From Candidatus Eiseniibacteriota bacterium (GTDB lineage Bacteria > Eisenbacteria > RBG-16-71-46 > DASYSL01), in assembly GCA_031413115.1 (NCBI GenBank), contig JANOEH010000024.1, forward strand, positions 336 through 64,335: 64,000 nt of DNA, written 5' to 3'. The number at the start of each line of letters is the position of its first letter. Position 1 is the first letter of the stretch. Shown here in pieces: positions 12,901-27,485 of the stretch. A model generated the notes under the pieces. It was not told where the DNA came from. It saw only the letters and a list, made by a program, of their open reading frames with translations, and searched no databases. Both the position numbers and the translations under genes were made by a program.

Positions 12901-13309
12901 ATCCGACGCTCGTCGCATCAGGTCCGAGCTCGGTCTCGACGCCCGCGGGAAGCCGGGACGAGATCTTGGACAGATACTCGAGCACGCGCGAGCGGGCCCA
13001 GTAAGGATCGGTCCCGTCCTGGAAGACGACGTAGACGAAGCTGTAACCGAAGTCCGAGAAGCCGCGGATCGCCTTGACTCGCGGCGCGCCGAGCAGCGAC
13101 GTGATGATCGGGTACGTGACCTGGTCTTCGATGATGTCGGGACTGCGGTCCCATCGTGAATAGACGATCACCTGGGTGTCCGAGAGGTCCGGCAGCGCAT
13201 CCAGCGGGATGTGCTTCATCGTCCAGAACGAGAACAGCAGGGCCACGAGCGTCGCCGCGATGACGAGGTACCGGTTGTTCGCGGAGAATCGGATGATCGC
13301 GTGGATCAT
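9986..13309 (-). CDS. cusA: Heavy-metal efflux RND permease (CusA/CzcA family)
   Basis: 1107 aa; MIHAIIRFSANNRYLVIAATLVALLFSFW... typical CusA N-terminus; 12 TM; ATGA overlap with upstream fusion gene. Confidence 0.95.
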   Translation of the reverse strand: MIHAIIRFSANNRYLVIAATLVALLFSFWTMKHIPLDALPDLSDTQVIVYSRWDRSPDIIEDQVTYPIITSLLGAPRVKAIRGFSDFGYSFVYVVFQDGTDPYWARSRVLEYLSKISSRLPAGVETELGPDATSVGWVFQYALVDRSGKHSTDELRSYQDWFLRYAVQSVPGVSEVATVGGQVRQYQITVHPASLAAYGLPLDAVVEAVRKGNNDVGGRLVEISGREYMVRGRGYVKSIADLEKLVLKTENGTPIQVKDVATVAIGPEMRRGIADYNGEGDVVGGIVVMRQGENALDVISRVKTRLEELKPSLPPGVELVTTYDRSELIDRAIHSVRNKIIEEVIIVSLVILLFLWHIPSATVPILTIPISVALAFIPMYLMGLNANLLTMAGIAISIGVLVDGAIIEVENAYNKIHHWQADGMKGDFREVRLSALLEVGPSVFFSLLIIAVAFMPVFTLVDQEGRLFRPLAYSKNLAMAIAAVLAITFNPAVRMLFARIEPFTFRPRWLSWLATQLLVGRYYSEERHPISRLLHRVYEGPCRFVVRHAKATVIVSLLLVASTVPVYLSLGSEFMPPLREGSLLYMPSAVQPGMSVAEAQKALQVQDKLLLTFPEVATIFGKAGRADTPTDPAPFSMMETTILLKPESQWRARPRWYSSWAPEWIKAGLRPFWGDRITEEQLVDEMNSALQLPGISNAWTMPIKARLDMLSTGIRTPVGIKVSGADLQIIQKTAIEIESALQDVPGTRSVYAERVAGGYFLDFVLDRDQLARYGLSVDDANMMVMTAVGGDNQTTTVEGRERYGVNVRYARDYRDDVEALKRVLLPLPGGRGQIPMSEIADVRMVEGPSMIRDENGLLTGYVYVDFDVSRTDIGRYVESGKRAVAAKVKLPTGYAVSWSGQYENMLRVKERMKLVIPLTLLLIFGLLFLNTRSMFKSGMVMLAVPFSLIGAVWLLYLLDYNISIAVWVGMIALAGLDAETGVFMLLFLDLSHDEARARGRLRTTGDLVEAIIHGAVKRVRPKAMTVAAAFMGLLPIMWSMETGSDLMKRIAAPMVGGLVTSFLLELLVYPAIYYLWRRKEVTEGPAAVEWAVPEAHPDRMPVPVAGA

Positions 13310-14775: not shown

Positions 14776-14788
14776 GATCTCCTCCGCG

Positions 14789-16297
14789 CTACATCGTCGG
14801 CATGGCTGACGAAGTGGTCCCCGCGGCCGAGGCGGGGGGCGTGCTGCCAGCGGGCGCCGAGGCTGCACCCATTCCGCTGCGACCGGGCATGGAAGCGCCT
14901 CCCAGCACACCGAGCGCCGGGCCCGGGACCGGGTCGAGACTGAGTTCGCGCTGGGCGATTTCGACTCGCAGAGTGGCGCCGACCGATTCGTAGAAGCCGA
15001 CCAGGTCGGCGAGATAGCCGCTCAGGGCGTCGAGCACCGAGGCGAACGGCACGCGCCCCACGCTGTACTGCGCCATGGCACTCGAAACCGTTGCCTGCGA
15101 CTGGATGAGCACCCCCGAGCGATACAGGCGGTTGGTCTCGAGCAGCGCCGTGAGCATCGCCCGCCGTTCCTCGAGCCTCTGCCGGGCGAGCCGCCGGATG
15201 GTCTCGCAGGCGCTCGCGGCCGCTTTCCGGCGCAGCTGGTACTCATCGACGGCCCGGGACTGCTTGCTGCCGGCCCAGAGCGGAAGGGGAAAGGACACGC
15301 CCGCCTGCCACATCGTCTCGAACGTGCCACCCCGCGGCATCACGCCCCCGATCACCGTCAGGTCAGGGAAGTAGTCCTTCTTCGCGAGCGACACGAGAAC
15401 GCCCGACTGTTCGGCTGCGAACTGTGCCTTCTGCAGCTCCGGAGTGCGGGCCTCGACCTCGGCCTCGGCAATCGAGGAATCCGGCAGCGGGGGATCCGCA
15501 ATGTCCCCCAGGGACACCGTGGTCCGGATCGGTTGATCGAGCGGATGTCCGACGGAACGATTGAGCACGGCCAGTCGACGCCTCTCCTCGGACACCAGCG
15601 CCCAGCGTTGTTGCTGAAGCCGGCTTCGCTCCAGCTGGGTTCGCAACACGTCCGATTGCGCGCCTTCGCCGGTCTCGAATCGTGAGCGGGCGAGCCCTTC
15701 CGCCTGGATCCAGAGAGCTTCGAGCGTCCCGAGGACTCTGCTCTGGTCGCGGACGAGGAGCAAGTCCACGTATCCGCGCTCGACTTCGGCCCGCACCGTG
15801 AGGCGGGCCCGTTCAAGATCGGCTTCGGACTGCTTCGCCCCCAGGGTCTGCGCGTTCTCACGGAGCCCGCGCTTTCCGACCCAGGGAAACGTCTGCGCAG
15901 CCACGATGGACCACCAACTCGTCTCCATCTCCCCGATCTGGAGGCCATTGAATCCGTCGTTCTGGATCCCGAGCGAGATCACGGGATCGGGCAGTGCGCG
16001 CGCCTGCGGGATGCGAGCCCGTTCCGCATCCGCCGTCGCCTGCGCCTGTGCGAGCTCAGGGCGACTGCCGAGGGCCTCGCGCAGCAAGCCTGCGATCACG
16101 GAATCCCGTCCAGGTTCCTCGGCGACCGGCGCCGCACCCACGGGCTGCACCACCCCGAGGCCGAGAGTGACGGCGAGATACGTCACGATCCTGCGCGGGG
16201 CTCGGAGTGCCCGCTCCCGGCCAACTCCTGGAAGGTTCGCGTGGCGCGTGCCAGCCAGGGCCGCCACCCGTGCCACGGTTCCGATGCGGAGCTGCAT
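14789..16297 (-). CDS. cusC: Outer membrane efflux factor (CusC/TolC family)
   Basis: ~503 aa from ATG 16297; signal peptide; OEP repeats (LREALGSRPELAQAQ..., second half ASIAEAEVEARTPELQKAQ...). Confidence 0.85.
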   Translation of the reverse strand: MQLRIGTVARVAALAGTRHANLPGVGRERALRAPRRIVTYLAVTLGLGVVQPVGAAPVAEEPGRDSVIAGLLREALGSRPELAQAQATADAERARIPQARALPDPVISLGIQNDGFNGLQIGEMETSWWSIVAAQTFPWVGKRGLRENAQTLGAKQSEADLERARLTVRAEVERGYVDLLLVRDQSRVLGTLEALWIQAEGLARSRFETGEGAQSDVLRTQLERSRLQQQRWALVSEERRRLAVLNRSVGHPLDQPIRTTVSLGDIADPPLPDSSIAEAEVEARTPELQKAQFAAEQSGVLVSLAKKDYFPDLTVIGGVMPRGGTFETMWQAGVSFPLPLWAGSKQSRAVDEYQLRRKAAASACETIRRLARQRLEERRAMLTALLETNRLYRSGVLIQSQATVSSAMAQYSVGRVPFASVLDALSGYLADLVGFYESVGATLRVEIAQRELSLDPVPGPALGVLGGASMPGRSGMGAASAPAGSTPPASAAGTTSSAMPTM

Positions 16298-16483
16298 GGA
16301 CTTCTCCCGTCTGGCCACGATGGGCCGAGGAGCCCGATGGACGATCAGTCAGTGGAAAAGAGTCTCCCGCTCAAGCCGCAGGACCGCTGATCCGCGCCGC
16401 GGGCCGGCAGCCCGCTGGAACTGTAGCGGCTGGGCAGGGCACACGCACGATGCGCGCGTGCTCAGCCCGGCAATCGGGGAGAA

Positions 16484-16924: not shown

Positions 16925-17324
16925 CGGTCCGACCCTGCGCCTCCCGACGGTCCGGGCACGGACCATCCAGGAAGACCAGACTCGCAAGAATCACGCCCGT
17001 GTCTCACGGTGGGGAAGTCCGCCGGGCTTCCGTGTGATCCCTACCCTTGTTTCCGGGCACTTTCAGCCCGCTGCGAGGCGTACCTCAGGAAGTGCGAGAT
17101 GGACCCGTTCCCTGACTCGATGACCGGGTTGACCGCCAGCTTGGCAGGCAGCGCAATGCTCACTACTTCCATGACGCGGGAAGGGCATGGCGGCATCTGC
17201 GCAAAGTCGCCCGTACCGTCAATGCGCCGCATTGCGTCGATGATCCCTTCGCCGGAGTGCTACACTTGTTGCCCCGCCGGGCTTGAGCGAACGGCTCCGG
17301 TCGCACGAGCATCGCGGAGGCAAC

Positions 17325-18215
17325 ATGGCTCGACATCACGGATTCGCCGGCGCGATACGTTTCCGGGCGGTTGCCGGCATCGTCCTGGCCACGCTCCTGG
17401 CGGCGGGCCCGGCGCTCGGCGCTTCGAACACGATCCTCATCACGGAAGTCGAGGCCGATCCGGTCCAGCTCGGCTTCGACTCGCCCTTCGAGTGGTTCGA
17501 AATCCAGAACATCAGCGACCAGACGCGCACGCTCACGGACTGGACGATGGCCGACAACCAGGCCTCGGACGCGCTCCCGACGATCGTGCTCGGGCCCGGG
17601 GAATGTGTCGTTCTGGCCACGAACGGCTCGAACTTCAGCACATCGCATCCGGGCTATTCCGGGAGGGTCGTCCAGGTCGGAAGCATCGGCGCCGGCCTCG
17701 AGAACGCCGCGGACTTCATCGTTCTCCGGGACGACTTGGGGACCGACGTCGACTGCGTCTCCTGGGGAACGAGCACGACCTGCTTCAGTCCCGCAGCCGC
17801 CGTCCCCGCGGCGAACACCGCCGTCACCCTGCAGCGTGCATCGACGGTGGACACGGATTCCGGTGCCGATTGGGCGAGCAACACGAACGAGACTCCCTGC
17901 CCCGGGGCCGTCGGCGTGTCGGATCCGCATTCGAGAGTCGGTGGCCCCCGCATCACCATCACCCCGAACCCGGGCTTCGGGCGGACCACGATCTCATGCT
18001 CCGGTGTCGCCGCGGGCCCGTTGGTGGTCGCGATCCATGACGCCACGGGGCGACGCATCCGGACGCTGCGCGACGAGGGCTCAGTATCGACGCGGAGCAT
18101 CGCCTGGAATGGGCTCGACGAGCAGGGCCGCGCCGTCCCCGCAGGATTCTATCTCGTCACCCTCCCGAAACGCCTCGGGGCGCCGGGGGCGGGACGATTC
18201 CTCCTGCTGCGGTGA
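17325..18215 (+). CDS. Lamin-tail-domain (LTD) protein with C-terminal FlgD-Ig/T9SS-type sorting-like domain
   Basis: Signal peptide; ILITEVEADP...FEWFEIQN...LTDWT matches LTD; C-terminus ...ITITPNPGFGRTTIS...GRRIRTL...WNGLDEQGRAVPAGFYLVTL...RFLLLR resembles FlgD Ig-like/Por_Secre_tail. Confidence 0.75.
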   Translation: MARHHGFAGAIRFRAVAGIVLATLLAAGPALGASNTILITEVEADPVQLGFDSPFEWFEIQNISDQTRTLTDWTMADNQASDALPTIVLGPGECVVLATNGSNFSTSHPGYSGRVVQVGSIGAGLENAADFIVLRDDLGTDVDCVSWGTSTTCFSPAAAVPAANTAVTLQRASTVDTDSGADWASNTNETPCPGAVGVSDPHSRVGGPRITITPNPGFGRTTISCSGVAAGPLVVAIHDATGRRIRTLRDEGSVSTRSIAWNGLDEQGRAVPAGFYLVTLPKRLGAPGAGRFLLLR

Positions 18216-18369: not shown

Positions 18370-20037
18370 ATGAATCCTACGATCCGCGTGCCTGCCGCCC
18401 TTCGATTCGTCGCATCTCTCGGCCTCCTGCTGATCCTCGGGGCCTGCTCCGGCTCTTCCCTCGACCAGGCGAAGCTCCAGCCGCGGGTGACCCGGCTCGT
18501 CGAAAAGCCGAAGGAATCCGTCGCCGGGGAGACGCTGCTCCAGCGCGACGCGGTCATCGCGTTCTACCAGGCGCGCAAGTTCAAGCCTGCCTGGGACCTC
18601 GGTCCGGGTGCGGCCTCGATCCGCGAGGCGATCGCCGGGATCGGGCAGGACGGCCTCGATCCCGACGAGTACCACCTCGCGCGGATCGACTCGTTGCTCG
18701 CGCGGCGCAAGGAGCAGCGCACCGACGAGCGCGACGCGGAACTCGAGATCCTGTTCAGCGATGCCGTCGCGGGGATGATCGACCACGCGCGGTACGGTCG
18801 CGTCCTGCCGGCCTCGCTCGACAAGCACTGGAACGTCGATCCGCGCAAGGATGCGCCGCCGATCGCCGCGGCGCTGGCGCGCGTGGCCGAGTCGGTGTCG
18901 CCGGCCGCGGGGCTCGAGAAGGAAAAGCTCGATCACTTCATCTATGCCGGCTTGAGGGGCGAGCTGGACCTGCTTTCGAAGGTCGCGCAGCACGGCGGCT
19001 GGGCGGCGATTCCCGTGGGCAAGGCCCTCGTGCCCGGCACTCGCGATCCGCGGATCGCCCTCGTTCGCGCGCGGCTCGCCGCGACCGGGGAGCTGCCGCA
19101 GGGCACGGCGACGGTGGACGACTCCGTCGGCTACGACAGCGACCTCGCGGCGGCGGTGAAGGGCTTCCAGACACGGCATCGCCTGATCGATGACGGAAGG
19201 CTCGACGCCGGCACGCTCGCCGCAATGAACGTCTCGGTCGAGGACCGGATCGACCAGGTGAAGGTGAACCTCGAGCGTTCGCGCTGGGTCCTGCCCGGGC
19301 TCACGGCCGACTTCGTGCTGGTCAACCTCCCCGCGTTCAAGGCCTACCTGATTCGTGACGGCAAGTCCGTCTGGGAGTCGCGCACGCAGATCGGCAAGGA
19401 GGCGCGCCAGACGCCCATCTTCCGCGCCGACATGAAGCAGGTGATCTTCAACCCGACGTGGACGGTGCCGCCGACGATCCTGGCCGAGGACGTGCTGGGC
19501 GGGATCGCACGCGGCGAGGACATGCTGGCGAAGAAGAATCTCAAGGTCTACGACGGCGATGGCAACCTCGTCGATCCGAAGTCGGTCGACTGGAAGAACG
19601 CGACCGCGGGAAACTTTCCCTACACGCTGCGCCAGGACGCCGGCCTCGACAACGCGCTCGGTCGCGTGAAGTTCATGCTGCCGAATTCGTACAACATTTA
19701 CCTGCACGACACGCCCAGTCGCGAGCTGTTCGCCTCCGAGGAGCGCACGTTCAGCTCGGGCTGCATTCGGCTCGAGGATCCGATCGGATTTGCGAAGCAG
19801 CTCCTCTCCGACCAGGGCTACGATGATGCGAAGGTCAATGAAGTCATCGCGACGGGGGAGACCAAGGCGGTGGACCTGACGACACCGCTTCCGGTGCTCA
19901 TCGTCTACTGGACGGTCAGCGTGGGCGCGTCCGGCGAGGTGCGCTACGGGCCCGACGTCTACGACCGCGACGGCATGATCCTCGCAGCGCTGTCCGCGCG
20001 ACGGGGGCTGGTCGCCGCGGCGGCACCGGCGCGTTGA
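18370..20037 (+). CDS. L,D-transpeptidase family lipoprotein (YcbB-like, PG-binding + YkuD domain)
   Basis: 555 aa; lipobox LGACSG; peptidoglycan-binding-like repeat (LAAAVKGFQTRHRLIDDGRLDAGTLAAMN); catalytic HDTPSRELF...SSGCIRL motif. Confidence 0.9.
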   Translation: MNPTIRVPAALRFVASLGLLLILGACSGSSLDQAKLQPRVTRLVEKPKESVAGETLLQRDAVIAFYQARKFKPAWDLGPGAASIREAIAGIGQDGLDPDEYHLARIDSLLARRKEQRTDERDAELEILFSDAVAGMIDHARYGRVLPASLDKHWNVDPRKDAPPIAAALARVAESVSPAAGLEKEKLDHFIYAGLRGELDLLSKVAQHGGWAAIPVGKALVPGTRDPRIALVRARLAATGELPQGTATVDDSVGYDSDLAAAVKGFQTRHRLIDDGRLDAGTLAAMNVSVEDRIDQVKVNLERSRWVLPGLTADFVLVNLPAFKAYLIRDGKSVWESRTQIGKEARQTPIFRADMKQVIFNPTWTVPPTILAEDVLGGIARGEDMLAKKNLKVYDGDGNLVDPKSVDWKNATAGNFPYTLRQDAGLDNALGRVKFMLPNSYNIYLHDTPSRELFASEERTFSSGCIRLEDPIGFAKQLLSDQGYDDAKVNEVIATGETKAVDLTTPLPVLIVYWTVSVGASGEVRYGPDVYDRDGMILAALSARRGLVAAAAPAR

Positions 20038-20077
20038 GCGGGGGTCGACACGGTCCGCCGAGACCGTACCGGGGTCT

Positions 20078-20833
20078 TCAGCCGAGACACCGCTCGAACC
20101 ACGCGAGCGTTCGCTCCCACGCGGCCTGCGCGGCCGCGGGGTGATACGCCGGGCGCACGTCATTGAAGAAGGCGTGCTTCGCGCCGTCGTACTCGACGAC
20201 TTCGTGCGCGGCTCCGAGCGCGCCCAGCTTTTCGCGGATCGCCCCGACATCCGCCGGCGGGATCCCGCCGTCCTCGGATCCGAACAGGCACAGGAGCGGC
20301 GCGCGAATTCCCTCCGCTTCGTCGAGCAGCGGTGCCAGCGCGAGGCCCGTGCGCGGGCGCACGATGCCTCCTCCATAGAAGGAGACGGTCGCCGCCGGGT
20401 CGAGGCGGCAGGCCGCCAGGAACGCCGCGAAGCCGCCGACGCAGAAGCCAACCACGCCGACACGTGCGGGATCGACGTCGCCGCGGCTGCGCAGGTGCGC
20501 GAGCGCGGCGGCCAGGTCCTGCTCGAGTCCGGCGTTGGTCAACAGCGCGAGCTGCGCCATGGCGGGGGGCATGTCCGAGTACGGAATCTCGATCCCGATC
20601 CCGGCGCGGTGGAAGATCTCGGGCGCGAGCGCGACGTAGCCTACCGCGGCGAAGCGGCGGCAGACGTCGCGGATGTGCGCGTTGACGCCGAACGCCTCCT
20701 GCACCACGACGACCGCGGCGTGCGGGCCTGGGGACGCCGGCGCGACGAGCCAGGCGTCCATCGGTCCGTCGGCGGTGGAGATCGTGACACGGGCTTCCGT
20801 GGGGAGAGCGACGGGATCGGTCATGCGGGACAT
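20078..20833 (-). CDS. Dienelactone hydrolase family protein
   Basis: ~251 aa from ATG 20833; DLH-like sequence with nucleophile elbow GFCVGG and C-terminal ...YDGAKHAFFND... Confidence 0.85.
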   Translation of the reverse strand: MSRMTDPVALPTEARVTISTADGPMDAWLVAPASPGPHAAVVVVQEAFGVNAHIRDVCRRFAAVGYVALAPEIFHRAGIGIEIPYSDMPPAMAQLALLTNAGLEQDLAAALAHLRSRGDVDPARVGVVGFCVGGFAAFLAACRLDPAATVSFYGGGIVRPRTGLALAPLLDEAEGIRAPLLCLFGSEDGGIPPADVGAIREKLGALGAAHEVVEYDGAKHAFFNDVRPAYHPAAAQAAWERTLAWFERCLG

Positions 20834-20874
20834 CGTGCCACGGCCCAGGCGCGCGGTCGATGGGGCTCGTGGCA

Positions 20875-21585
20875 TCACGGCGAGCGGCGCCCCGGCACTC
20901 CGCGGAACGCGAGCCAGAAGATGATCGGCAGCTCGCCGAGTTCGAAGATCAACGCCACCTGCCCCACGGCGGGTGCGAACTGCGGCAGCAGGATCACGGT
21001 GAATGCGTTCACGACGTAGGCCAGGCCGGCGGCCATCACCGCGAACCCGAGGGCGCGGGGGAAGTACCCCGAGCGAACGATGAGCCGCCCGAACGGAAAC
21101 AGCCAGAGCCCCCAGAAGATCGAGGCGACGTTGATTCCCTTGTCGTGCAGGCGCATGAAAAAATAGGCGAGGGCGTCGAGCTGCCCGGGCTCGAAGACCG
21201 CGAGGAAGTCGCCGCCGCCGAGCAGCGTGAGCGCGGCCTGCTCGTTGACGACGTTGAGGAACGTGATCGGGACGGACACCAGGCCGCCGAGGACCACCAT
21301 CTGCTTCGCCAGGCGCTCGTCGACGTCCTTGAACAGCCGGTACAGCGCCAGCACGACGAAGATGGCGATCGCCTGGTGGATCAGCTCGCTCGCGATCCCG
21401 ACGCGGAGCAACCACGTGGAGGCACGGATCCGTTCCGCGGTGGCCGTCGCGTCGCCCGCGACGATGAGTTGACCGGGGACGTACAGAAGTCCGATGGGTG
21501 CGATGAGCCCCATGAGGAAATACAGCCTCCCGGCGACCTTCGCGCGCCGGTCGATCGAGTCCGGGACCACGGCGGGCGCGCTCAC
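20875..21585 (-). CDS. DUF4386 family membrane protein
   Basis: 236 aa from GTG 21585 (4-nt GTGA overlap with upstream ORF stop); several TM helices; AKVAGRLYFLMGLIAPIGLLYVPGQLIV... typical DUF4386 N-region. Confidence 0.65.
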   Translation of the reverse strand: MSAPAVVPDSIDRRAKVAGRLYFLMGLIAPIGLLYVPGQLIVAGDATATAERIRASTWLLRVGIASELIHQAIAIFVVLALYRLFKDVDERLAKQMVVLGGLVSVPITFLNVVNEQAALTLLGGGDFLAVFEPGQLDALAYFFMRLHDKGINVASIFWGLWLFPFGRLIVRSGYFPRALGFAVMAAGLAYVVNAFTVILLPQFAPAVGQVALIFELGELPIIFWLAFRGVPGRRSP

Positions 21586-21947
21586 GCCGACTCCGCCGCG
21601 CCGGCGACGACGAGGCCGCGCAGGGCCTTCCGCACGCGTATGCACCACAGTTTGCGCGCGAGGCGCACCGCTCCACGCGGTGCGCTCGAGCGCATGTGCC
21701 GCAGGCCGCCGATGCCGCTGCGGCTGCCGCCGATCGCCTGGAGTCCGAACCTGAGCATGGTTACCCCCACAAAGAGCGCGACCAGCATCGCCGCGAACTC
21801 GACCCGGCGCGACGCAGTGATCGTCGAACGCACGGTCAACAGCCCCGTGAGCGCAAGACAGGCCGTCACGATCGCGGCCGGGAAGTTGATCACCGCCCAG
21901 GTGGCCTGCCGCAACGCGAGGATGTGGACCAGCAGGGTCGCGTGCAT
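21582..21947 (-). CDS. Small hypothetical membrane protein (operon middle gene)
   Basis: 121-aa ORF, GC3 ~90%; two hydrophobic helices; separated from the upstream ORF by only an in-frame TGA plus one codon; 3' end overlaps DUF4386 start. Confidence 0.4.
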   Translation of the reverse strand: MHATLLVHILALRQATWAVINFPAAIVTACLALTGLLTVRSTITASRRVEFAAMLVALFVGVTMLRFGLQAIGGSRSGIGGLRHMRSSAPRGAVRLARKLWCIRVRKALRGLVVAGAAESA

Positions 21948-21950
21948 CCG

Positions 21951-22187
21951 TCAACGCTCCCCGGCGGTTCCGCGTCGAGCGAGAAACTCGTGCTTGAGCA
22001 CGCGCACGAGGGCCCACGTCGTCTTCACGAAGACGATCCGGCCGCACCGTAGCACGGTCGCGGCCGGTCCGGCGACGCACAGGCGATCGAGGATGCAATT
22101 CGCGGCGGCAGAGCGGGCTCCGCTCCCACATTGCAGGGCGAGGGAAGCCAGGAGCACGAGCATGAGTCTTCGAACGAACGGTTGCAT
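21951..22187 (-). CDS. Small exported Cys-containing peptide (~78 aa)
   Basis: ATG 22187 preceded by GAGGAGGA; signal peptide MQPFVRRLMLVLLASLALQCGSGA; 4 Cys; first gene downstream of LytTR response regulator. Confidence 0.35.
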   Translation of the reverse strand: MQPFVRRLMLVLLASLALQCGSGARSAAANCILDRLCVAGPAATVLRCGRIVFVKTTWALVRVLKHEFLARRGTAGER

Positions 22188-22331
22188 GGCGGTCCTCCTC
22201 GACACGAAGGAATGCTGCATGCGAGGAAGTGTGGCCGCCGCGCCGGGCGTGAGGAAGCCGGTTGCGACGAACGGCGGAATCGAGGGAGCGAACGGCGGTG
22301 GGGGCCGACGAACGGCCGGGCGGGTGAAGCC

Positions 22332-23123
22332 CTACATCTGCCGAAACAGGTGCAGGTAGTTGCGGCTGACGGGCAGAACATCGGCGCGGCCCTTGAGGTG
22401 GATGTCGGCCGTCTCGTTGTCGCCACGGGTGACGTGACTGATGGCGCGCAGGTTGACCACGACCGAGCGGTGCACCTGCGCGAACTGCGCGGGATCGAGC
22501 TGGGAGACGAGGTCCTTGAGCGCGACGCGCACCAGCGCCTCGGCGGGCTGTCCGGCGTCGCCGCGCCACGCCACCAGCGTGTACTTCGTGTCGGAGCGCA
22601 GGAAGTCGACGTCCTCGACCGCGATCAGGCGCAGCGTCTCGCCAACCTGGGCGCGGATCCAGCGCAGCGGTTCCGGGGCGGCGCCGGACTGGAGCTGCGC
22701 GAGGTGCGCGGCGAGTTGCTGCAGCACCGCATCGGCGTCGTGCGTGGGTTGCGCCGAGCGCAGGCGCTCCTGGAGGCGTGCGACCGTCTCGGCGAGCCGC
22801 TCGGGCTCGACGGGCTTCACTACGTAGTCGAGGGCGCCCTGCGCGAAAGCCTGCACGGCATAGTGATCGAACGCGGTGACGAAGATGAGGTGCGCGCGGC
22901 GGCCGATCTTCCGGGCCGCCTCGATGCCGGACATCCCCGGCATGTGCACGTCGAGGAAGCAGATGTCGGGCCGGTGGGCCTCGAAGGACTCGACGGCTTC
23001 ACGACCGTTGCGCGCCTGGGCGACGATCTCGAGCTCCGGCCACGCGCCGGCCAGCTGGCGGGCCAGCGCCTCGCGCAGGAGCGGCTCGTCGTCGGCGATC
23101 AGTGCCGTCGGGTGGGAACGCAT
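22332..23123 (-). CDS. LytTR-family response regulator (REC + LytTR DNA-binding domain)
   Basis: 263 aa; REC domain (LIADDEPLLREALARQL...DICFLDVHMPGMSGIE...) and C-terminal LytTR domain. Confidence 0.9.
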   Translation of the reverse strand: MRSHPTALIADDEPLLREALARQLAGAWPELEIVAQARNGREAVESFEAHRPDICFLDVHMPGMSGIEAARKIGRRAHLIFVTAFDHYAVQAFAQGALDYVVKPVEPERLAETVARLQERLRSAQPTHDADAVLQQLAAHLAQLQSGAAPEPLRWIRAQVGETLRLIAVEDVDFLRSDTKYTLVAWRGDAGQPAEALVRVALKDLVSQLDPAQFAQVHRSVVVNLRAISHVTRGDNETADIHLKGRADVLPVSRNYLHLFRQM

Positions 23124-24208
23124 CAGTGCGTCGACCTGCGGACGGGGATGTCCACCTCGGCGCAGACCCCGCGCGGGGACTGCGCGACGACCCGGAGCTC
23201 TGCCGTCTCGCCGAAGGCCAACCGCAAACGCTCGCGCAGCGTCGCGAGGCCGGTGCCCAGGCCGTTGCCGGTCGGGCGCAGACCCACGCCCGTGTCGCTG
23301 ACACGCAGGATGCAGCGCTCGCCGCGTCGTTCGACGGAGACGTCGATGCGGCCGCCCTCCTCGCCCGGGTCGATCCCGTGGCGCACCGCGTTCTCGACCA
23401 GCGTCAGCAAGGTCATCGGCGGGCAGGGCAGCGCCAGCGCCGCCTCGTCGCCGTCCAGCGAGAACTGCAGTCGATCGGGCATGCGCATGTGCATGAGCTC
23501 GAGGTAGGCGCGGACGAGCTGCAGTTCCTGCCCGAGCGTGGTGGCCGGCTCGTCGAGGCGGGGCACCGCTGCGCGCAGGTAGGCGACCAGGCTCTGCAGC
23601 ACCGCCGGAGCCCGCGGCGATCCCGCCTCGACCAGCGCCTGCACGTTGGCCAGCGTGTTGAACAGGAAGTGCGGAGCGACCTGCGCCTGCAACAGGCGAA
23701 GCCGGGCGTCCAGCGCCTGCCGACCGAGTTCACTGCGTTCCAGGTCGAAGGCGAGCGCCTGGTGGCGTGCCAGCGCCTCCTTCTGCCGCACCAGCGCACC
23801 CAGGGCCATCCAGGGCGCGACGAACAGCCCGAGCACGGTCAGGATGGAGAAGCCTTCCATGCGCGACTTGACGAGATAGAACGCCGGCGCGCCGGCCGGT
23901 GTCGACAGCGCGTAGAGGATCGCGACGCTGGGTGGAATGCACACCCCGACCGCTACCACCTGCAACACCCAGCGCGCGATCCAGCGGGGCAGGCGCCGCG
24001 GCCAGCGCTCGAAGAGCCCGAAGACGAACATCGCAACCAGCCCGAGCGTCACCGTGCGCACGATCGCGGAGGCGGACCCGGACTTCCACCCGGAGTGGCT
24101 CAGCAGGAGGCCGATGGCGCCGGAGACCGCAACCGTGAAGAGGACGCGCCGCCAGTGCAGGATCCCGGGCGGTCCACCAGGCTTCAATGGTTCTGCAAGC
24201 GTGCGCAT
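23123..24208 (-). CDS. Sensor histidine kinase (membrane-integral, His_kinase PF06580 + HATPase; LytS/AlgZ type)
   Basis: ~361 aa from ATG 24208; 4-5 N-terminal TM helices; HFLFNTLANV signature; C-terminal ATPase (LVENAVRHG..., SDTGVGL). Confidence 0.85.
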   Translation of the reverse strand: MRTLAEPLKPGGPPGILHWRRVLFTVAVSGAIGLLLSHSGWKSGSASAIVRTVTLGLVAMFVFGLFERWPRRLPRWIARWVLQVVAVGVCIPPSVAILYALSTPAGAPAFYLVKSRMEGFSILTVLGLFVAPWMALGALVRQKEALARHQALAFDLERSELGRQALDARLRLLQAQVAPHFLFNTLANVQALVEAGSPRAPAVLQSLVAYLRAAVPRLDEPATTLGQELQLVRAYLELMHMRMPDRLQFSLDGDEAALALPCPPMTLLTLVENAVRHGIDPGEEGGRIDVSVERRGERCILRVSDTGVGLRPTGNGLGTGLATLRERLRLAFGETAELRVVAQSPRGVCAEVDIPVRRSTH

Positions 24209-24257
24209 GGCCCGAGGATAGTCCAGACGCGTGCGGGAACCAACGAAGCGTGTGGGG

Positions 24258-24704
24258 CTACTCGCCTTCGCCGCCCCCGTCGAGGAAGCGATCCGGCGCG
24301 TCGGTCGTGGGAAACGTGCAGACATCGTGGCGGCCGAACCAACGGTAGCGCGAGCGGGCGATACGATCGTACGCCCAGTCGCGCAAGGCGCGCGGCGCGA
24401 GCTGCGCGAGTCGTGCGAGGATCGGCCACGGCTGGCGCAGCTGTGCGGCCACCGCGAGCGCCCCGTCGCTGCGCACGAGCATGGCGTCGCCGGCCAGCAC
24501 GACCACGCTGTCGGTTCCCGGTGGGAGTCCGCCGCGTGCCGCGAGGAGCCCGCGCGAGGTCTCCGACTGCAGCTGCGCGAAGACAATGCGCGCGTGGGGA
24601 TCGCGCGCGATCACGAAGCGCACGCCCGTGTGGCACAGGTGGCAGACGCCGTCGAAGAGAACCACGATTCGATCGGACGGGGTGGATAGGTCGGGAGCGC
24701 GCAT
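24258..24704 (-). CDS. DCC1-like thiol-disulfide oxidoreductase family protein (DUF393)
   Basis: 148 aa read from 3' end of the long antisense ORF 24258..26939; VLFDGVCHLCHTGVRFVIARD motif typical of DUF393/DCC. Confidence 0.7.
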   Translation of the reverse strand: MRAPDLSTPSDRIVVLFDGVCHLCHTGVRFVIARDPHARIVFAQLQSETSRGLLAARGGLPPGTDSVVVLAGDAMLVRSDGALAVAAQLRQPWPILARLAQLAPRALRDWAYDRIARSRYRWFGRHDVCTFPTTDAPDRFLDGGGEGE

Positions 24705-24839
24705 GGGGCGAGGATACCCCAGCACCCGAGGGCACTCGCGCCGGAGGCTCCCGCCGCGTCGGCGGGGCGGCCGCAACGAGGAACGACGTGCTAGATTGAT
24801 GCTCCAAACGCAGTTCCACGCCCATCCCGGAGCCAGCCC

Positions 24840-27011
24840 GTGCGCCACGGCCGAATCCGTCATCTTTCCGCCATCGTCAGCGGGGTCCTCGGCATCCTGT
24901 TGATCCTCGCCGCCGTGCTCCTGGGCTACGCGCGGCGCTCGCTGTTCGACGAGCGCGCGTTTGCAGCGCGCGTGGCGGAGAGCTTCGAGGATCCGCGGGT
25001 CGCCAACTTCGCCGCCGAGCAGATCGCCGACGGGATCATCGCGGCGAAGCCGGATCTCGTCGGCCTGCGGCCCATTCTCGTCGGCACCAGCCGGGGCGTC
25101 GTCGCCTCGGCCCCGTTTCGCGCGGCGGTGAAGCGCGCCGCCCGCACGCTGCACCACGCGATCACGACGGGCACGGCCGAGGACATCGTCCTCACGGTGA
25201 AGGATGTCGGAGCGCTGCTCGAGAGCGCCGTCGCGAACCAGCCAGGCATCGCCGGCAAGCTGCCTCGTGGATTGACCGCCGCGGTCGGGACACTCAAGTC
25301 CCTGCCCGGCGGCGATCGTGCCGAGTGGATCGTCCGCGTTGCCAACCGGATGCGCGCGGCCACGCTCGTCTTCCTCCTGCTCGGCATCGCGCTGTGCTTC
25401 GCGTGCGGGTGGCTCGCCCGCGATCGCCGGCGCGCGATCGTCCGGCTCGGCACCGCGCTCATGCTCGTCGCGGTCGCCCTCGGGGTGGTCGCCCGCTTCG
25501 GTGGCGACGCGCTGCAGCTGCTGGCCCGCAACCAGGAGAACGCGCCGGCGCTGGCCGGACTCGGTGGAGCGTTCCTCGGCGGGCTCATGGTGTGGGCCAT
25601 GGTCGTCGGCTTCAGCGGGCTGATCCTCGCCGCCGCCTCGGCTTCGCTGCTCGATCGCGTGCCGCTGGCCGCCCTCGCGCAGCGGACGCGGGCGTGGTGG
25701 TTCGGTCCGCAGCCGCTCATGCGCCTGCGCCTCCTGCGCGGCCTGCTCGGCGCGGTGATCGGCGCGCTGCTCCTGTTCTGGACGCTGCCCACGCTCACGA
25801 TTGTCGGCTGGCTGGGCGGACTCGTGATCGCGTTCGCCGGGATCCGCGAGGCGTTCGCCGCCGGGTTGCATCTCCTGCCGCACTTCGAGCCGAAGACGCA
25901 GGAAGAGCGCGTCGCGCGCCGCGGCACCGCGGGGAGCATGGCGATCTTCGCCGTCGCGACGGTGACGGTCGCGATCCTCGGGACGGCGGTGTGGGCGTTC
26001 GTGCGCTCGCACGACGATGCGGATGCCCCGGTCGTGGTCACCGCGTTCAACGGCCTGCCCGAACTGGGAGACCGGCGCCTGGACGAGGTCGTGTTCGCGA
26101 CTGCGCACAATGCGATGGGCAGCCCCGACACGCCGGGATGGATGTTCCCGAACCAGAGCGCTGGTATCAGGAGCCAGCTCGAGGACGGGATCCGCGGTTT
26201 CCTCATCGACGCCACGTACGGCGCGAAGGCCGGCAACTACGTGAAGACCGAGCTCGACTCGTCGCCGGACGCGATGGCGAAGTACGAGGCTGCCGTCGGC
26301 GCGGAGGGAATGGCCGCCGCGCTCAAGATCCGCGACCGCATGGCGGGCGTCGAGGCCGGCACTCGCGACATCTACATGTGCCACGGCTTCTGCGAGCTGG
26401 GTGCGCTGCGGCTCGTGCCCGTGCTCGCCCAGGTGCGCGACTTCCTGGTGGCGAACCCGGGCGAGGTGCTGGTGTTCGTCATCCAGGACGAGGGGGTCCC
26501 GCCGCCCGAGATCGCCCGCTGCTTCGAGGAGAGCGGGCTGATCGACTTCGTCTATCGCGGACCCGCACAGCCGCCGTGGCCGACGCTGCGCGAGATGGTC
26601 GACAGCGACCAGCGTGTGCTGGTCATGACCGAGCACGAATCGGAGGGCGTGGACTGGATCCACTCCGCCGTCGAGGTGATGCAGGAGACGCCGTACACGT
26701 TCCACCACCGTTCGCAGTTCAGCAACGTCCCCAACCGCGGCGGCACCGCGGGGTCGCTCCTGCTCATGAACCACTGGATCGAGACGACGCCCATGCCCAA
26801 GCCCAGCAACGCCGACACCGTGAACGCGCACGACTTCCTGATGGCGCGCATCAAGGCGTTGCAGAAGGAGCGCGGGAAGCTGCCGAACCTGGTCGCCGTG
26901 GATTTCTATCGCGAGGGCGATCTCGTGGCGGTGGTGCACGAGCTGAACGCCGGAACGCCGGACCTCGCGCAGGCAGCTCGTTCACTGAGCGTGCCGCGGG
27001 AGTCGCGCTAA
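24840..27011 (+). CDS. Membrane protein with C-terminal PI-PLC X-domain-like (PLC-like phosphodiesterase) domain
   Basis: 723 aa (GTG start); ~8 TM helices in N-terminal 400 aa; C-terminal FATAHNAMGSP...GFLIDATYG...IYMCHGFCELG...LVFVIQDEG resembles bacterial PI-PLC X-domain/PLC-like phosphodiesterases. Confidence 0.7.
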   Translation: MRHGRIRHLSAIVSGVLGILLILAAVLLGYARRSLFDERAFAARVAESFEDPRVANFAAEQIADGIIAAKPDLVGLRPILVGTSRGVVASAPFRAAVKRAARTLHHAITTGTAEDIVLTVKDVGALLESAVANQPGIAGKLPRGLTAAVGTLKSLPGGDRAEWIVRVANRMRAATLVFLLLGIALCFACGWLARDRRRAIVRLGTALMLVAVALGVVARFGGDALQLLARNQENAPALAGLGGAFLGGLMVWAMVVGFSGLILAAASASLLDRVPLAALAQRTRAWWFGPQPLMRLRLLRGLLGAVIGALLLFWTLPTLTIVGWLGGLVIAFAGIREAFAAGLHLLPHFEPKTQEERVARRGTAGSMAIFAVATVTVAILGTAVWAFVRSHDDADAPVVVTAFNGLPELGDRRLDEVVFATAHNAMGSPDTPGWMFPNQSAGIRSQLEDGIRGFLIDATYGAKAGNYVKTELDSSPDAMAKYEAAVGAEGMAAALKIRDRMAGVEAGTRDIYMCHGFCELGALRLVPVLAQVRDFLVANPGEVLVFVIQDEGVPPPEIARCFEESGLIDFVYRGPAQPPWPTLREMVDSDQRVLVMTEHESEGVDWIHSAVEVMQETPYTFHHRSQFSNVPNRGGTAGSLLLMNHWIETTPMPKPSNADTVNAHDFLMARIKALQKERGKLPNLVAVDFYREGDLVAVVHELNAGTPDLAQAARSLSVPRESR

Positions 27012-27319
27012 CCCTCGATCTTGTAGATCTCCCGGCGGCCGCGCTCGACGAGGTCGTGGTATCCCTTCATGATCATCTCCATCTTCTTTGTGTCGGCTTT
27101 CTTCATGCTTCCGGCCTGCTCCATCTTCTCCCAGGCGGCGAGGCTCTTCACTTCCATCCCCATGACACAGGTCCAGTAACGCTCGGAGCTCACGTCGGTG
27201 AGGACGCGCATGCGTCCCAGTTTCGACTTCTCCATGAGCTTCGACAGGGCGCTCGCCTTCGCGACCATCGCGCGGACCTTGCCGGGCTTGCAGAACATGA
27301 GCTCGCGAATCAGGTACAT
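27008..27319 (-). CDS. Small Lys/Met-rich protein, possible dimeric alpha/beta-barrel (NIPSNAP/ABM-like)
   Basis: ATG 27319 with GAGGAG 5 nt upstream; 103 aa MYLIRELMFCKPGKVRAMV...; locally lower GC (~60%) than surroundings; family assignment tentative. Confidence 0.5.
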   Translation of the reverse strand: MYLIRELMFCKPGKVRAMVAKASALSKLMEKSKLGRMRVLTDVSSERYWTCVMGMEVKSLAAWEKMEQAGSMKKADTKKMEMIMKGYHDLVERGRREIYKIEG

Positions 27320-27485
27320 GACCACTCCTCGTGGTTCGGGTGGATGACTCGGGACGTCGACGGTGCGCCGAGGCTACTCCCGGCGGGAGAGCGGAGTCTG
27401 CGCCCGTGCTCCCTGAGTCCGCGGTATCGCGGGCAGGGCGCGCAATGGTAACCTTGCTGTCCGCCTGCTCCTGGGAGATCGCTTC

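What the first reader, a model, noticed from the sequence alone, without database searches (positions are those of the whole stretch)
20875..24704. LytTR two-component system directly upstream of a small exported Cys-peptide/membrane/DUF4386 operon
Gene order on the minus strand is DCC(DUF393) thiol-disulfide oxidoreductase, membrane histidine kinase (PF06580-type), LytTR response regulator, then a ~78-aa exported peptide with 4 Cys and a strong RBS. This is followed by a 121-aa membrane protein, DUF4386 (GTGA-coupled) and dienelactone hydrolase. Membrane HK plus LytTR regulators with an adjacent small exported peptide is the architecture of peptide-signal or bacteriocin-like circuits. The thiol-disulfide oxidoreductase next to a Cys peptide fits that picture. 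This arrangement is unusual outside Firmicutes.
Basis: partly seen in the sequence, partly recalled or inferred. Interest (0 to 1): 0.6.

Follow-up and report, generated by a model that had tools for sequence, protein, structure and literature searches.

The report
AlgR-type sensor pair controlling membrane-protein operon
This is an ordinary membrane-sensor/regulator pair of the Pseudomonas AlgZ/AlgR type, with its DNA binding sites directly in front of a neighbouring operon for envelope proteins of unknown function; the small exported peptide is real but occurs in only a few relatives and shows none of the hallmarks of a signalling peptide or bacteriocin.

Summary
The gene order is as described: DCC, a PF06580 histidine kinase, a REC-LytTR regulator, a 78-aa ORF, a 121-aa ORF, DUF4386 and a dienelactone hydrolase (DLH). 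Three phased 9-bp boxes (CCGTTCGTC / CCGTTCGCT / CCGTTCGTC, 20-21 bp apart) lie between the regulator's stop codon and the peptide gene. The sequence is the published AlgR consensus. The same box pair sits 44-48 nt upstream of an ATG at 19 of 23 sites in orthologous loci.

The conserved neighbours of this sensor pair are small polytopic membrane proteins: DUF4386, DUF2306-like, and two families with no Pfam match. They are not peptides.

The peptide family has 4 clusters among 1.84 billion representative proteins. The three whose surroundings could be read sit in the same slot, directly after the LytTR regulator gene. It has a Sec-type signal peptide and a conserved C-terminal core. Only one of the four Cys is conserved, it evolves almost neutrally, and none of 80 orthologous loci has it.

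The "121-aa membrane protein" is an in-frame deletion remnant of a DUF2306-like gene. DCC and DLH are not conserved partners.

Verdict: a LytTR sensor pair with a well-supported regulator-to-operon link, as seen in LytSR-lrgAB and YpdAB-yhjX. The peptide-signal and bacteriocin reading is not supported.

The parts
24258..24704 (-). DCC1-like (DUF393) thiol-disulfide oxidoreductase, 148 aa. Lineage-specific upstream neighbour, not part of the conserved module.
   Evidence: PF04134 E 1e-23. Found next to the sensor pair only in the window and L001; absent from 80 orthologous loci. The P0005 contig has a methyltransferase in this position.
23123..24208 (-). Sensor histidine kinase, 361 aa: four TM segments, then a PF06580 phospho-acceptor domain (His180 in PHFLFNTL) and HATPase_c. 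AlgZ/FimS-like architecture.
   Evidence: Pfam. TM segments 22-40, 44-67, 77-103, 118-141. dN/dS 0.21 against L001. 78 orthologues share the loop motifs FERWPRRLPRW and STPxGAPxF.
22332..23123 (-). Response regulator, 263 aa: REC (Asp58) + LytTR DNA-binding domain. Its start overlaps the kinase stop.
   Evidence: PF00072 E 4e-24 and PF04397 E 1e-17. Best NCBIfam hit is BtsR, below its cutoff. dN/dS 0.09. 34% identity over the full length to an AlgR sequence recalled from memory.
22307..22315 (-). Distal regulator box 1, CCGTTCGTC (a perfect match to the AlgR consensus).
   Evidence: Consensus from PMC4064291 and PMC4787818.
22287..22295 (-). Middle regulator box 2, CCGTTCGCT (start 20 bp after box 1).
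22266..22274 (-). Proximal regulator box 3, CCGTTCGTC followed by GCAA (start 21 bp after box 2). It ends 45 nt before the ATG at 22220.
   Evidence: The same box-GCA(A) element and the 44-48 nt spacing to an ATG occur at 19 of 23 sites in related loci.
22228..22233 (-). -10-like hexamer CACACT, 7 nt before the ATG at 22220. Inferred promoter of the target operon; a leaderless-type layout in relatives.
   Evidence: Positional equivalence with GATACT, GATAGT, CACTAT and CACAGT in orthologous loci. No canonical sigma-70 match. The transcription start is inferred, not shown.
22218..22220 (-). Relic ATG at the position where the first gene starts in relatives. In frame with pep78 here (89-aa form), but out of frame in L161.
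22194..22200 (-). Shine-Dalgarno sequence GAGGAGG of pep78.
   Evidence: The equivalents are CAGGAGG in L001 and GTGAGGA in L161.
21951..22187 (-). pep78: a small protein with a predicted Sec signal peptide (cleavage about SGA|R) and a cationic mature part of about 54 aa. Its conserved C-terminal core is GRxxVVxTTxAxxRxxKHE.
   Evidence: 4 clusters among 1.84e9 representatives. Same slot after the regulator gene in L001, L161 and the P0005 contig. Alignment. dN/dS 0.73 overall; core 0.13-0.56. No Pfam or NCBIfam hit.
21582..21947 (-). orf121: an in-frame, multiply deleted remnant of a roughly 230-aa DUF2306-like membrane protein gene. Its stop overlaps the DUF4386 start.
   Evidence: Alignment A2. 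L001 carries a different deletion. L161 has the undeleted N-terminal half; its contig ends inside the gene. No Pfam hit, whereas full-length relatives hit PF10067.
20875..21585 (-). DUF4386 membrane protein, 236 aa, intact.
   Evidence: PF14329 E 8e-43. dN/dS 0.15. AF2 model with pLDDT 90.8 and 7 helices; no PDB fold relative.
20078..20875 (-). Dienelactone hydrolase family protein, last gene of the operon. The exact start is uncertain: GTG 20878, ATG 20875 or ATG 20833.
   Evidence: PF01738 E 2e-51. Linked to the sensor pair only in the window and L001.

Best explanation
This is an AlgZ/AlgR-like two-component system that directly switches on the operon next to it.

Working model:
1. The kinase has four membrane helices and almost no extracellular part. 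It senses a membrane or periplasm-proximal cue that remains unknown.
2. It phosphorylates the LytTR regulator on Asp58.
3. Regulator molecules bind three phased CCGTTCGTC-type boxes at 22266-22315, immediately after the regulator's own stop codon.
4. This activates a promoter whose -10-like element (CACACT) lies about 32-37 nt downstream of the proximal box.
5. Transcription starts near 22220 and runs through pep78, the DUF2306-like remnant, DUF4386 and DLH. The last three ORFs are joined by overlapping stop and start codons.

The ancestral and widespread output of this sensor family is a set of small polytopic membrane proteins: DUF4386, DUF2306-like, and two families with no Pfam match. In logic it resembles LytSR-lrgAB and YpdAB-yhjX, where a sensor induces membrane proteins.

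pep78 is a recent addition confined to one clade. It was inserted between the old leaderless start codon and the first membrane-protein gene. It is probably exported to the periplasm by Sec and is only weakly constrained. It is not the signal the kinase detects.

Shown here: domain content, boxes, their conservation and geometry, the gene-neighbourhood statistics, and the decay of orf121. Inferred: binding, activation, the transcription start, export, and the physiological role.
For: - Domains. Four TM segments in kinase residues 22-141. AlgZ is described with four TM helices in its first 150 aa (PMC4064291).
- The three boxes are unique in the 64-kb window, with 0 of 100 shuffles giving a phased pair. 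An independent repeat finder also reports them.
- The box sequence equals the AlgR consensus 5'-CCGTTCGTC-3' (PMC4064291, PMC4787818). The architecture matches the general LytTR rule of 9-11 nt repeats with 11-13 nt spacers (PMC4847170).
- Phylogenetic footprint: a phased pair with at most 3 mismatches lies within 260 nt after the regulator stop in 16 of 62 orthologous loci, against 2 of 1110 control pieces.
- At 19 of 23 sites an ATG follows the proximal box at 44-48 nt, preceded by a -10-like hexamer.
- Neighbourhood: of 35 orthologous loci assessable on both sides, 25 have a DUF4386, DUF2306-like, TM130, DUF2306 or TM140 gene directly adjacent.
- The kinase, regulator and DUF4386 are under purifying selection, with dN/dS 0.09-0.21.
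- pep78: the family is confined to 4 clusters and always follows the regulator gene. It is absent from all 80 orthologous loci, even with a profile search of six-frame translations.
Against: - No experiment: binding, activation and the transcription start are inferred.
- No canonical sigma-70 promoter is detected.
- The boxes are partly degenerate in the closest relative L001 (GGTTCGTC / CCATTCAGT / CCACTCGTC). The circuit may therefore be decaying in this lineage, as is the DUF2306-like gene.
- The regulator is only 34% identical to AlgR, using a sequence recalled from memory. The shared box could be convergence or deep conservation.
- The window's own DUF4386 is closest (67%) to homologues that lack the sensor pair.
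- The functions of all output proteins are unknown. DUF4386 has no structural relative in the PDB.
Confidence: 0.65

Rival explanations
1. Peptide autoinduction loop. pep78 would be exported, perhaps processed, and sensed by the adjacent kinase. The LytTR regulator would then raise pep78 expression through the direct repeats, as in Agr, Com or Pln circuits.
For: The formal layout matches: a peptide gene with a signal sequence directly downstream of a LytTR sensor pair and under LytTR-type direct repeats. The peptide keeps this position in the three members whose surroundings could be read, and on the P0005 contig. It has a conserved C-terminal core.
Against: - The kinase is PF06580 with four TM segments. 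From my own knowledge, known peptide receptors belong to a different kinase class.
- There is no AgrB-like or C39-ABC export gene in the cluster, and the leader is Sec-type.
- 80 orthologous loci (61-80% kinase identity, with conserved sensor loops) lack the peptide.
- The kinase is 98% identical while the peptide is 55-60% identical between the window and L001.
- The host is diderm: TonB receptor, OEP and HlyD genes are in the window. A Sec-exported protein of about 54 aa would therefore stay in the periplasm.
Confidence: 0.08
2. pep78 is a periplasmic feedback modulator or co-sensor of the kinase. It would be induced by the system and act back on the four-TM kinase, in the way MgrB acts on PhoQ or CpxP on CpxA.
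For: It is the first gene of the regulator-controlled operon and has an export signal. In other clades the same slot holds a small 4-TM protein (TM130), which in some loci is co-operonic with the kinase and regulator, in the order boxes-TM130-kinase-regulator. That suggests the slot tends to hold accessory proteins. The C-terminal core is under purifying selection between L001 and L161 (omega 0.13).
Against: There is no direct evidence. pep78 has no detectable similarity to TM130. Overall dN/dS is 0.73. The structure model is of low confidence, pLDDT 58. The comparison with MgrB and CpxP is an analogy from general knowledge only.
Confidence: 0.15
3. pep78 is not a functional gene product. It would be an open frame in GC-rich, nearly neutrally evolving DNA between the promoter and the decaying DUF2306-like gene.
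For: - dN 0.33 and dS 0.45 against L001, giving dN/dS 0.73. The N-terminal two thirds are at about 1.0.
- Nucleotide identity collapses across the whole interval from the regulator stop to the DUF4386 start, to intergenic-like levels.
- GC3 is only 0.76.
- By my own estimate, an 78-codon open frame has roughly a 1 in 5 chance in 70% GC sequence.
Against: - Four divergent versions (40-60% identity) all keep the ORF, a signal-peptide-like N-terminus with an AxA-type site, and the GRxxVVxTTxAxxRxxKHE core. The SD-ATG could be checked in the three with DNA.
- The indels between the window and L001 are 3 and 15 nt.
- Core omega is 0.13-0.56.
Confidence: 0.2
4. Bacteriocin plus immunity. pep78 would be a Sec-dependent cationic toxin and the downstream membrane protein(s) would protect the producer.
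For: The mature part is cationic (+5 to +8), is modelled as helical at low confidence, and is followed by membrane-protein genes under LytTR repeats.
Against: - The directly following membrane gene is independently deleted in the window and in L001, while pep78 is kept.
- The membrane families are the conserved partners of the sensor pair where no peptide exists.
- No export route across the outer membrane is encoded here.
- The hydrophobic moment is modest, 0.36-0.41.
Confidence: 0.04

Closest known systems
FimS(AlgZ)/AlgR of Pseudomonas aeruginosa
   Same: A kinase with four TM helices in the first ~150 residues and no large periplasmic domain. A REC-LytTR regulator. A 9-bp recognition sequence identical to the AlgR consensus CCGTTCGTC. 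Several boxes per promoter. (PMC4064291, PMC4787818.)
   Different: The regulator is only 34% identical to AlgR, using a sequence recalled from memory, so it is not an orthologue. The boxes here are tightly phased at 20-21 bp and fixed 45 nt from the start codon, whereas the algD and algC sites are scattered and distant. The targets are DUF4386 and DUF2306-like membrane proteins, not pili or alginate genes. The host is a Ca. Eisenbacteria-like soil bacterium.
LytS/LytTR-type nutrient or membrane sensors: YpdA/YpdB-yhjX and BtsS/BtsR (E. coli), LytSR-lrgAB (Staphylococcus)
   Same: A PF06580 kinase with a LytTR regulator. Tandem repeats of 9-11 nt with 11-13 nt spacers. The output is one or a few genes for polytopic membrane proteins (PMC4847170 for YpdAB-yhjX; the BtsSR and LytSR targets are from general knowledge). 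The best NCBIfam hit of the regulator is BtsR at 146 bits, below the 246-bit cutoff.
   Different: Pfam detects no 5TM-LytS sensor domain or GAF domain, only four TM segments. The box sequence differs. The output families differ and have no known function.
Peptide quorum-sensing and bacteriocin LytTR circuits (Agr, ComCDE, PlnABCD, Sil)
   Same: A LytTR regulator binds direct repeats upstream of a small exported-peptide gene next to the sensor pair (PMC4227749 for AgrA repeats).
   Different: The kinase class is different. There is no dedicated processing or export gene. The leader is Sec-type rather than double-glycine or AgrD-type. The peptide is missing from 80 orthologous loci. Peptide and kinase do not co-vary.
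DUF2306 (PF10067) membrane proteins
   Same: Full-length relatives of orf121 hit PF10067: 26.9 bits for the ~230-aa form (below the 31.6-bit cutoff) and 53 bits for the 313-aa form found next to orthologues.
   Different: orf121 itself lacks TM1-2 and the most conserved HLWRMCFALFIAAGSFFS segment, and gives no Pfam hit. The only functional report for the family is a fungal epoxidation helper, PraC (PMC12895699), which is far from this context.

Membership tests
LytS/LytTR-type two-component system | Kinase with a PF06580 (His_kinase) phospho-acceptor domain plus HATPase_c | tested here: met
   PF06580 E 1.5e-20 and PF02518 E 9e-8. H box PHFLFNTL, N box LVENAVRHG, G boxes DTGVG and GLGTGL read from the sequence.
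LytS/LytTR-type two-component system | Regulator with REC + LytTR domains, encoded next to the kinase | tested here: met
   PF00072 and PF04397. TGATG overlap with the kinase gene.
LytS/LytTR-type two-component system | Target promoter carries 9-11 nt repeats separated by 11-13 nt (PMC4847170) | tested here: met
   Three 9-bp boxes with 11- and 12-nt spacers at 22266-22315. 0 of 100 shuffles. Conserved in orthologous loci.
LytS/LytTR-type two-component system | 5TM-LytS-type sensor domain (as in LytS, BtsS, YpdA) | tested here: not met
   Pfam reports no such domain. Only four hydrophobic segments in residues 22-141.
AlgZ(FimS)/AlgR | Four TM helices in the first ~150 residues of the kinase | tested here: met
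   compare PMC4064291.
AlgZ(FimS)/AlgR | Regulator recognises CCGTTCGTC | tested here: inconclusive
   Perfect consensus boxes are present and conserved at the expected place. Actual binding cannot be tested with these tools.
AlgZ(FimS)/AlgR | Orthology to AlgR and an AlgR-type regulon (fimU-pil, algD) | tested here: not met
   34% identity to an AlgR sequence recalled from memory. The adjacent targets are DUF4386 and DUF2306-like genes.
Peptide quorum-sensing LytTR circuit (Agr/Com/Pln type) | Peptide-receptor kinase of the AgrC/ComD class | tested here: not met
   The kinase is PF06580 with four TM segments. That AgrC/ComD form a different class is from my own knowledge.
Peptide quorum-sensing LytTR circuit (Agr/Com/Pln type) | Dedicated peptide processing or export gene, and a matching leader (double-glycine or AgrD-type) | tested here: not met
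   None among the seven cluster genes or their immediate neighbours. The leader is Sec-like with an AxA-type site in all four family members.
Peptide quorum-sensing LytTR circuit (Agr/Com/Pln type) | Peptide gene under the regulator's direct repeats | tested here: met
   The boxes lie 79-128 nt upstream of the pep78 ATG. The same holds in L161.
Peptide quorum-sensing LytTR circuit (Agr/Com/Pln type) | Peptide accompanies the sensor pair across orthologues and co-varies with the receptor | tested here: not met
   0 of 80 orthologous loci carry it. The kinase is 98% identical against 55-60% for the peptide, window versus L001.
Class II bacteriocin with immunity gene | Intact immunity (membrane) gene following the toxin gene | tested here: not met
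   The following gene is an internally deleted remnant, with different deletions in the window and L001.
DUF2306 (PF10067), for orf121 | Match to the family profile over its conserved helices | tested here: not met
   No hit for orf121. L001's version scores 22.7 bits and L161's 21.3 bits, both below the 31.6-bit cutoff. Alignment A2 shows three missing segments.
DUF4386 (PF14329) | Full-length match to the family profile | tested here: met
   147 bits, profile positions 1-210 of 210.
Bacterial lipoprotein, for pep78 | Lipobox [LVI][ASTVI][GAS]C at the end of the signal peptide | tested here: not met
   ALQC in the window and ALLC in L001 do not fit. That Cys is absent in P0005 and P0006.

The most novel reading that the evidence does not exclude
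The pep78 family may be a newly evolved periplasmic partner of an AlgZ-type four-TM kinase. It would be a small Sec-exported protein induced by the system that feeds back on, or co-senses with, the kinase. It would have arisen by insertion between a leaderless start codon and the first target gene in one Ca. Eisenbacteria-like clade. More broadly, the first slot of this operon (pep78 here, the 4-TM TM130 protein elsewhere) would define a third component of a widespread, unstudied soil-bacterial envelope-sensing module. That module's outputs, DUF4386 and DUF2306-like proteins, would thereby gain a first functional context.
Probability: 0.15. Interest if true: 0.55.

Novelty: new member of a known kind. 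Interest (0 to 1): 0.33.

Why it matters
The sensor pair itself is a standard type. Three things are useful.
- A precise, testable regulator-to-operator-to-operon link, conserved in many soil metagenome contigs and seen in one other Ca. Eisenbacteria genome, using the same 9-bp word as Pseudomonas AlgR.
- A recurrent association that gives DUF4386, DUF2306-like and two families with no Pfam match their first regulatory context. A full-text search found no paper mentioning DUF4386.
- A small case study of operon turnover: a young exported mini-protein inserted behind a leaderless start, next to a gene caught in the act of decaying by in-frame deletions.

It does not provide evidence for peptide signalling or bacteriocin production in this phylum.

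Tried and rejected
- **pep78 as a remnant of TM130**, the protein that occupies the same slot elsewhere. A profile search of all frames gave E 0.25-0.6, so there is no support.
- **pep78 as a lipoprotein.** The lipobox does not fit and the Cys is not conserved.
- **Word-indexed homologue search with pep78.** It found only pep78 itself. The exhaustive search was needed to find the other three members.
- **AF2 model of pep78 from a 4-sequence alignment.** pLDDT 58, two long helices, not usable; no fold search was run.
- **Rfam scan of 20000-25000.** Nothing meaningful.
- **Sigma-70 and terminator scan.** No promoter. The terminator-like hits all lie inside coding regions and are weak.
- **AlgR box upstream of the kinase gene.** There is only one imperfect half-site (CGCTTCGTT, 24242-24250), at the wrong distance (33 nt rather than 45). 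Autoregulation, which is seen in some orthologous loci (L133, L134), is therefore not supported for this window.
- **Literature.** DUF4386 returned no papers. DUF2306 returned only a fungal epoxidation helper.

Full report
**1. What is there**

The minus strand between 20078 and 24704 carries seven tightly packed ORFs:
- DCC1-like protein, 24258-24704
- histidine kinase, 23123-24208
- response regulator, 22332-23123
- a 78-aa ORF (pep78), 21951-22187
- a 121-aa ORF (orf121), 21582-21947
- DUF4386, 20875-21585
- dienelactone hydrolase (DLH), 20078-20875

It gives nothing for the two small ORFs.

The overlaps are as described: TGATG between kinase and regulator, GTGA between orf121 and DUF4386, and TGATG between DUF4386 and DLH. 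pep78 has GAGGAGG 6 nt before its ATG. Third-position GC is 0.85-0.92 in the five annotated genes, 0.89 in orf121 and 0.76 in pep78.

The cluster is bounded by a convergent L,D-transpeptidase gene and a divergent 723-aa membrane protein gene. The window also encodes a TonB-dependent receptor, an OEP and a HlyD/CusB protein, so the host has an outer membrane. A contig from a Candidatus Eisenbacteria MAG (L001) is collinear at about 93% nucleotide identity, which suggests the window's origin.

**2.

Three 9-bp direct repeats lie between the regulator's stop codon and pep78:
- CCGTTCGTC, 22315-22307
- CCGTTCGCT, 22295-22287
- CCGTTCGTC, 22274-22266

Their spacers are 11 and 12 nt. A phased pair of this kind occurs nowhere else in the 64 kb, and in none of 100 shuffles. 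The general repeat finder reports the same copies.

CCGTTCGTC is, letter for letter, the consensus AlgR-binding sequence of Pseudomonas aeruginosa, established by footprinting and ChIP-seq (PMC4064291, PMC4787818). The 9 + 11-13 layout is the general LytTR rule (PMC4847170).

The kinase has four hydrophobic segments in residues 22-141 and no extracytoplasmic domain. AlgZ is described the same way, with four TM helices in its first 150 residues (PMC4064291). The regulator aligns end to end with an AlgR sequence that I recalled from memory, at 34% identity. That makes it a relative in architecture and DNA word, not an orthologue. Its best NCBIfam match is BtsR, below the cutoff.

**3. The link is conserved**

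A metagenome scan with the kinase returned 80 loci at 61-80% identity, out of more than 500 relatives.

- In 16 of the 62 loci that hold at least 80 nt after the regulator's stop, a phased box pair with at most 3 mismatches lies within 260 nt after it. In 14 of them it begins within 35 nt, typically as ...CAGATGTAGCCG-CCGTTCGTC-N12-CCnTTCGTC-GCAA... The control rate was 2 of 1110 pieces from the same loci.
- Across 23 such sites, 19 have an ATG 44-48 nt (mode 45) after the proximal box. That ATG is preceded at 6-8 nt by a -10-like hexamer such as GATACT, GATAGT, CACTAT or CAACAT. This geometry implies leaderless or near-leaderless transcripts.
- The window has exactly this geometry: proximal box, 45 nt, ATG at 22220, with CACACT 7 nt upstream.

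What follows the boxes elsewhere is not a peptide. It is a set of small polytopic membrane proteins:

| Family | Loci (of 80) |
|---|---|
| DUF4386 | 19 |
| ~230-aa DUF2306-like family | 17 |
| ~130-aa four-TM protein, no Pfam match (TM130) | 14 |
| 313-aa bona fide DUF2306 | 7 |
| 140-aa membrane protein, no Pfam match (TM140) | 5 |

Of 35 loci assessable on both sides, 25 have at least one of these directly adjacent.

Looked at from the other direction, four of the 80 loci chosen for their DUF4386 gene also carry an orthologue of this sensor pair: L001 itself, a second Eisenbacteria MAG, a Steroidobacteraceae MAG and Roseateles. It is met for DCC and DLH, which accompany the sensor pair only in the window and L001.

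**4. orf121 is a gene remnant**

Its only homologue in the word-indexed search is the L001 counterpart, at 43% identity, although the flanking genes are 95-98% identical.

Alignment with full-length relatives shows what happened. The window copy lacks TM1-2 (43 residues), a 24-residue segment, and the most conserved block (RMCFALFIAAGSFFS... through the last helix). The L001 copy keeps TM1-2 but lacks everything from the fourth helix to the C-terminal WRVR motif. A short metagenome contig (L161) from the same clade carries the N-terminal half with neither deletion up to the contig end.

So two different sets of in-frame deletions arose after the two genomes split. Both retain the last codons that overlap the DUF4386 start. 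I infer that the reading frame is kept because translation through the remnant helps DUF4386 expression; this is not shown. The identical orf121 product is on record from three contigs, which argues against a one-off assembly error. Read-level confirmation is still needed.

**5. pep78 is probably a real gene, but young, rare and weakly constrained**

An exhaustive HMMER search of 1.84 billion representatives found four clusters: pep78 itself, the L001 version (60%), P0005 (45%) and P0006 (44%).

- P0005 lies in the order methyltransferase, kinase (361 aa), regulator (263 aa), peptide, next gene.
- P0006 is on L161, in the order regulator 3' end, three boxes, peptide, DUF2306-like gene.

The slot is therefore conserved. 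All four share:
- a basic and hydrophobic N-terminus ending in an AxA-type site (SGA|R, AEA|R, AEA|G, AAA|G);
- a variable region of about 25 residues with indels;
- the core GRxxVVxTTxAxxRxxKHE;
- a cationic mature part, +5 to +8.

Only one Cys aligns (C[IV]L). The "lipobox-like" Cys is absent in two members.

Against L001, dN is 0.33, compared with 0.012-0.083 in the neighbouring genes, and dN/dS is 0.73. The N-terminal two thirds are at about 1.0 and the core at 0.13-0.56, depending on the pair. Nucleotide identity between the window and L001 collapses exactly between the regulator's stop and the DUF4386 start, to levels otherwise seen only in intergenic DNA.

A profile of the four peptides found no further member in six-frame translations of all 161 fetched loci. 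The ATG at 22220 corresponds to the start codon of the first gene in other lineages. pep78, with its own Shine-Dalgarno sequence, lies just behind it, and in L161 the relic ATG is out of frame. I read this as pep78 having been inserted behind an ancestral leaderless start.

**6. Why not a signalling peptide or bacteriocin**

- The kinase belongs to the PF06580 class, whose studied members sense metabolites or membrane state (YpdA responds to pyruvate, PMC4847170). It is not of the peptide-receptor class.
- Its short loops (FERWPRRLPRW, STPxGAPxF) are conserved in 78 orthologues whether or not a peptide is present.
- The kinase does not co-vary with the peptide.
- No processing or export gene is present.
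- The host is diderm.
- The adjacent "immunity-like" gene is decaying.
- The DCC protein has no signal sequence (read) and is not a conserved neighbour.

A periplasmic feedback or accessory role for pep78 is possible but untested. So is the null reading, that it has little function.

**7. Mechanism proposed**

An unknown membrane-proximal cue activates the four-TM kinase, which autophosphorylates on His180. The phosphate passes to Asp58 of the regulator. Regulator molecules occupy the three phased boxes and activate the promoter about 45 nt downstream. The result is a pep78-(remnant)-DUF4386-DLH transcript.

Steps shown: domains, boxes, conservation, geometry and neighbourhood statistics. Steps inferred: binding, activation, transcription start, export and physiological role. 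By analogy with LytSR-lrgAB and YpdAB-yhjX, the output is probably a change in membrane transport or envelope chemistry. I cannot say which one. DUF4386 models confidently as a seven-helix bundle (pLDDT 90.8) but has no relative in the PDB.

**8. Verdict**

This is a new member of a known kind. The attractive peptide-circuit interpretation is not. Interest is modest. The value lies in a clean, testable operator and in the first regulatory context for several unstudied membrane-protein families.

Noticed in passing
L146 448-934; L127 1298-1885 and 1414; L122 7906-8316; L135 4099-4500; L152 1925-2347: A ~130-aa four-TM protein with no Pfam match (motif LLLTLHITDDIVRGISKAE) is the commonest first gene after the AlgR-type boxes (14 loci). 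In some loci it is co-operonic with the kinase and regulator, in the order boxes-TM130-kinase-regulator. It may be a third component of the system.
   Followed up: partly
window 22173-22181 (minus strand): A fourth box-like copy, CCGTTCGTT, lies inside pep78 codons 3-5 (Pro-Phe-Val), 93 nt downstream of box 3. It is partly conserved in L001 (CCGTTCATC) and L161 (TCGTTCGTT). It could be a downstream regulator site, as at algC, or merely the coding of the conserved PFV motif.
   Followed up: no
window 24209-24257: The DCC-kinase gap carries a -10-like ACTATCCT about 7-9 nt before the kinase ATG. It resembles GGTATCCTC before the kinase genes in L133 and L134. The paired boxes those loci have are missing here: there is only one imperfect half-site, CGCTTCGTT, at 24242-24250.
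   Followed up: partly
window 21586-22331 versus L001 3099-3861: Nucleotide identity between the two genomes is 93-100% in the flanking genes. It drops to 4-78% exactly between the regulator stop and the DUF4386 start. Within the peptide core, the window groups with P0005 (ALVRV[LM]KHEF) while L001 groups with L161 (AFARALKHEAL). This could reflect recombination or uneven loss of constraint.
   Followed up: partly
L091 8813-9943, L023 64-1212, L123 2333-3484, L158 241-1362 and others: A zinc-dependent alcohol dehydrogenase or quinone-oxidoreductase-type gene (PF13602/PF00107/PF08240) recurs next to orthologues of the sensor pair in 7 loci, often on the opposite strand.
   Followed up: no
window 24840-27011 (+): A 723-aa predicted membrane protein, divergently transcribed from the cluster, has no Pfam match at E <= 0.001.
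   Followed up: no
window 27008-27325 (-): A 105-aa ORF (MVMYLIRELMFCKPGKVRAMVAKASALSKLMEK...) with no Pfam match and an amino-acid composition less GC-driven than its surroundings.
   Followed up: no
window 13306-16318 (-): A HlyD/CusB-type membrane-fusion protein with an N-terminal heavy-metal-binding domain (PF19335) sits next to an OEP. This is probably a metal efflux system.
   Followed up: no
window 17283-18215 (+): An exported protein with a lamin-tail domain and a C-terminal FlgD-Ig-like domain. I wondered whether that domain is a secretion-sorting tag, but did not test this.
   Followed up: no
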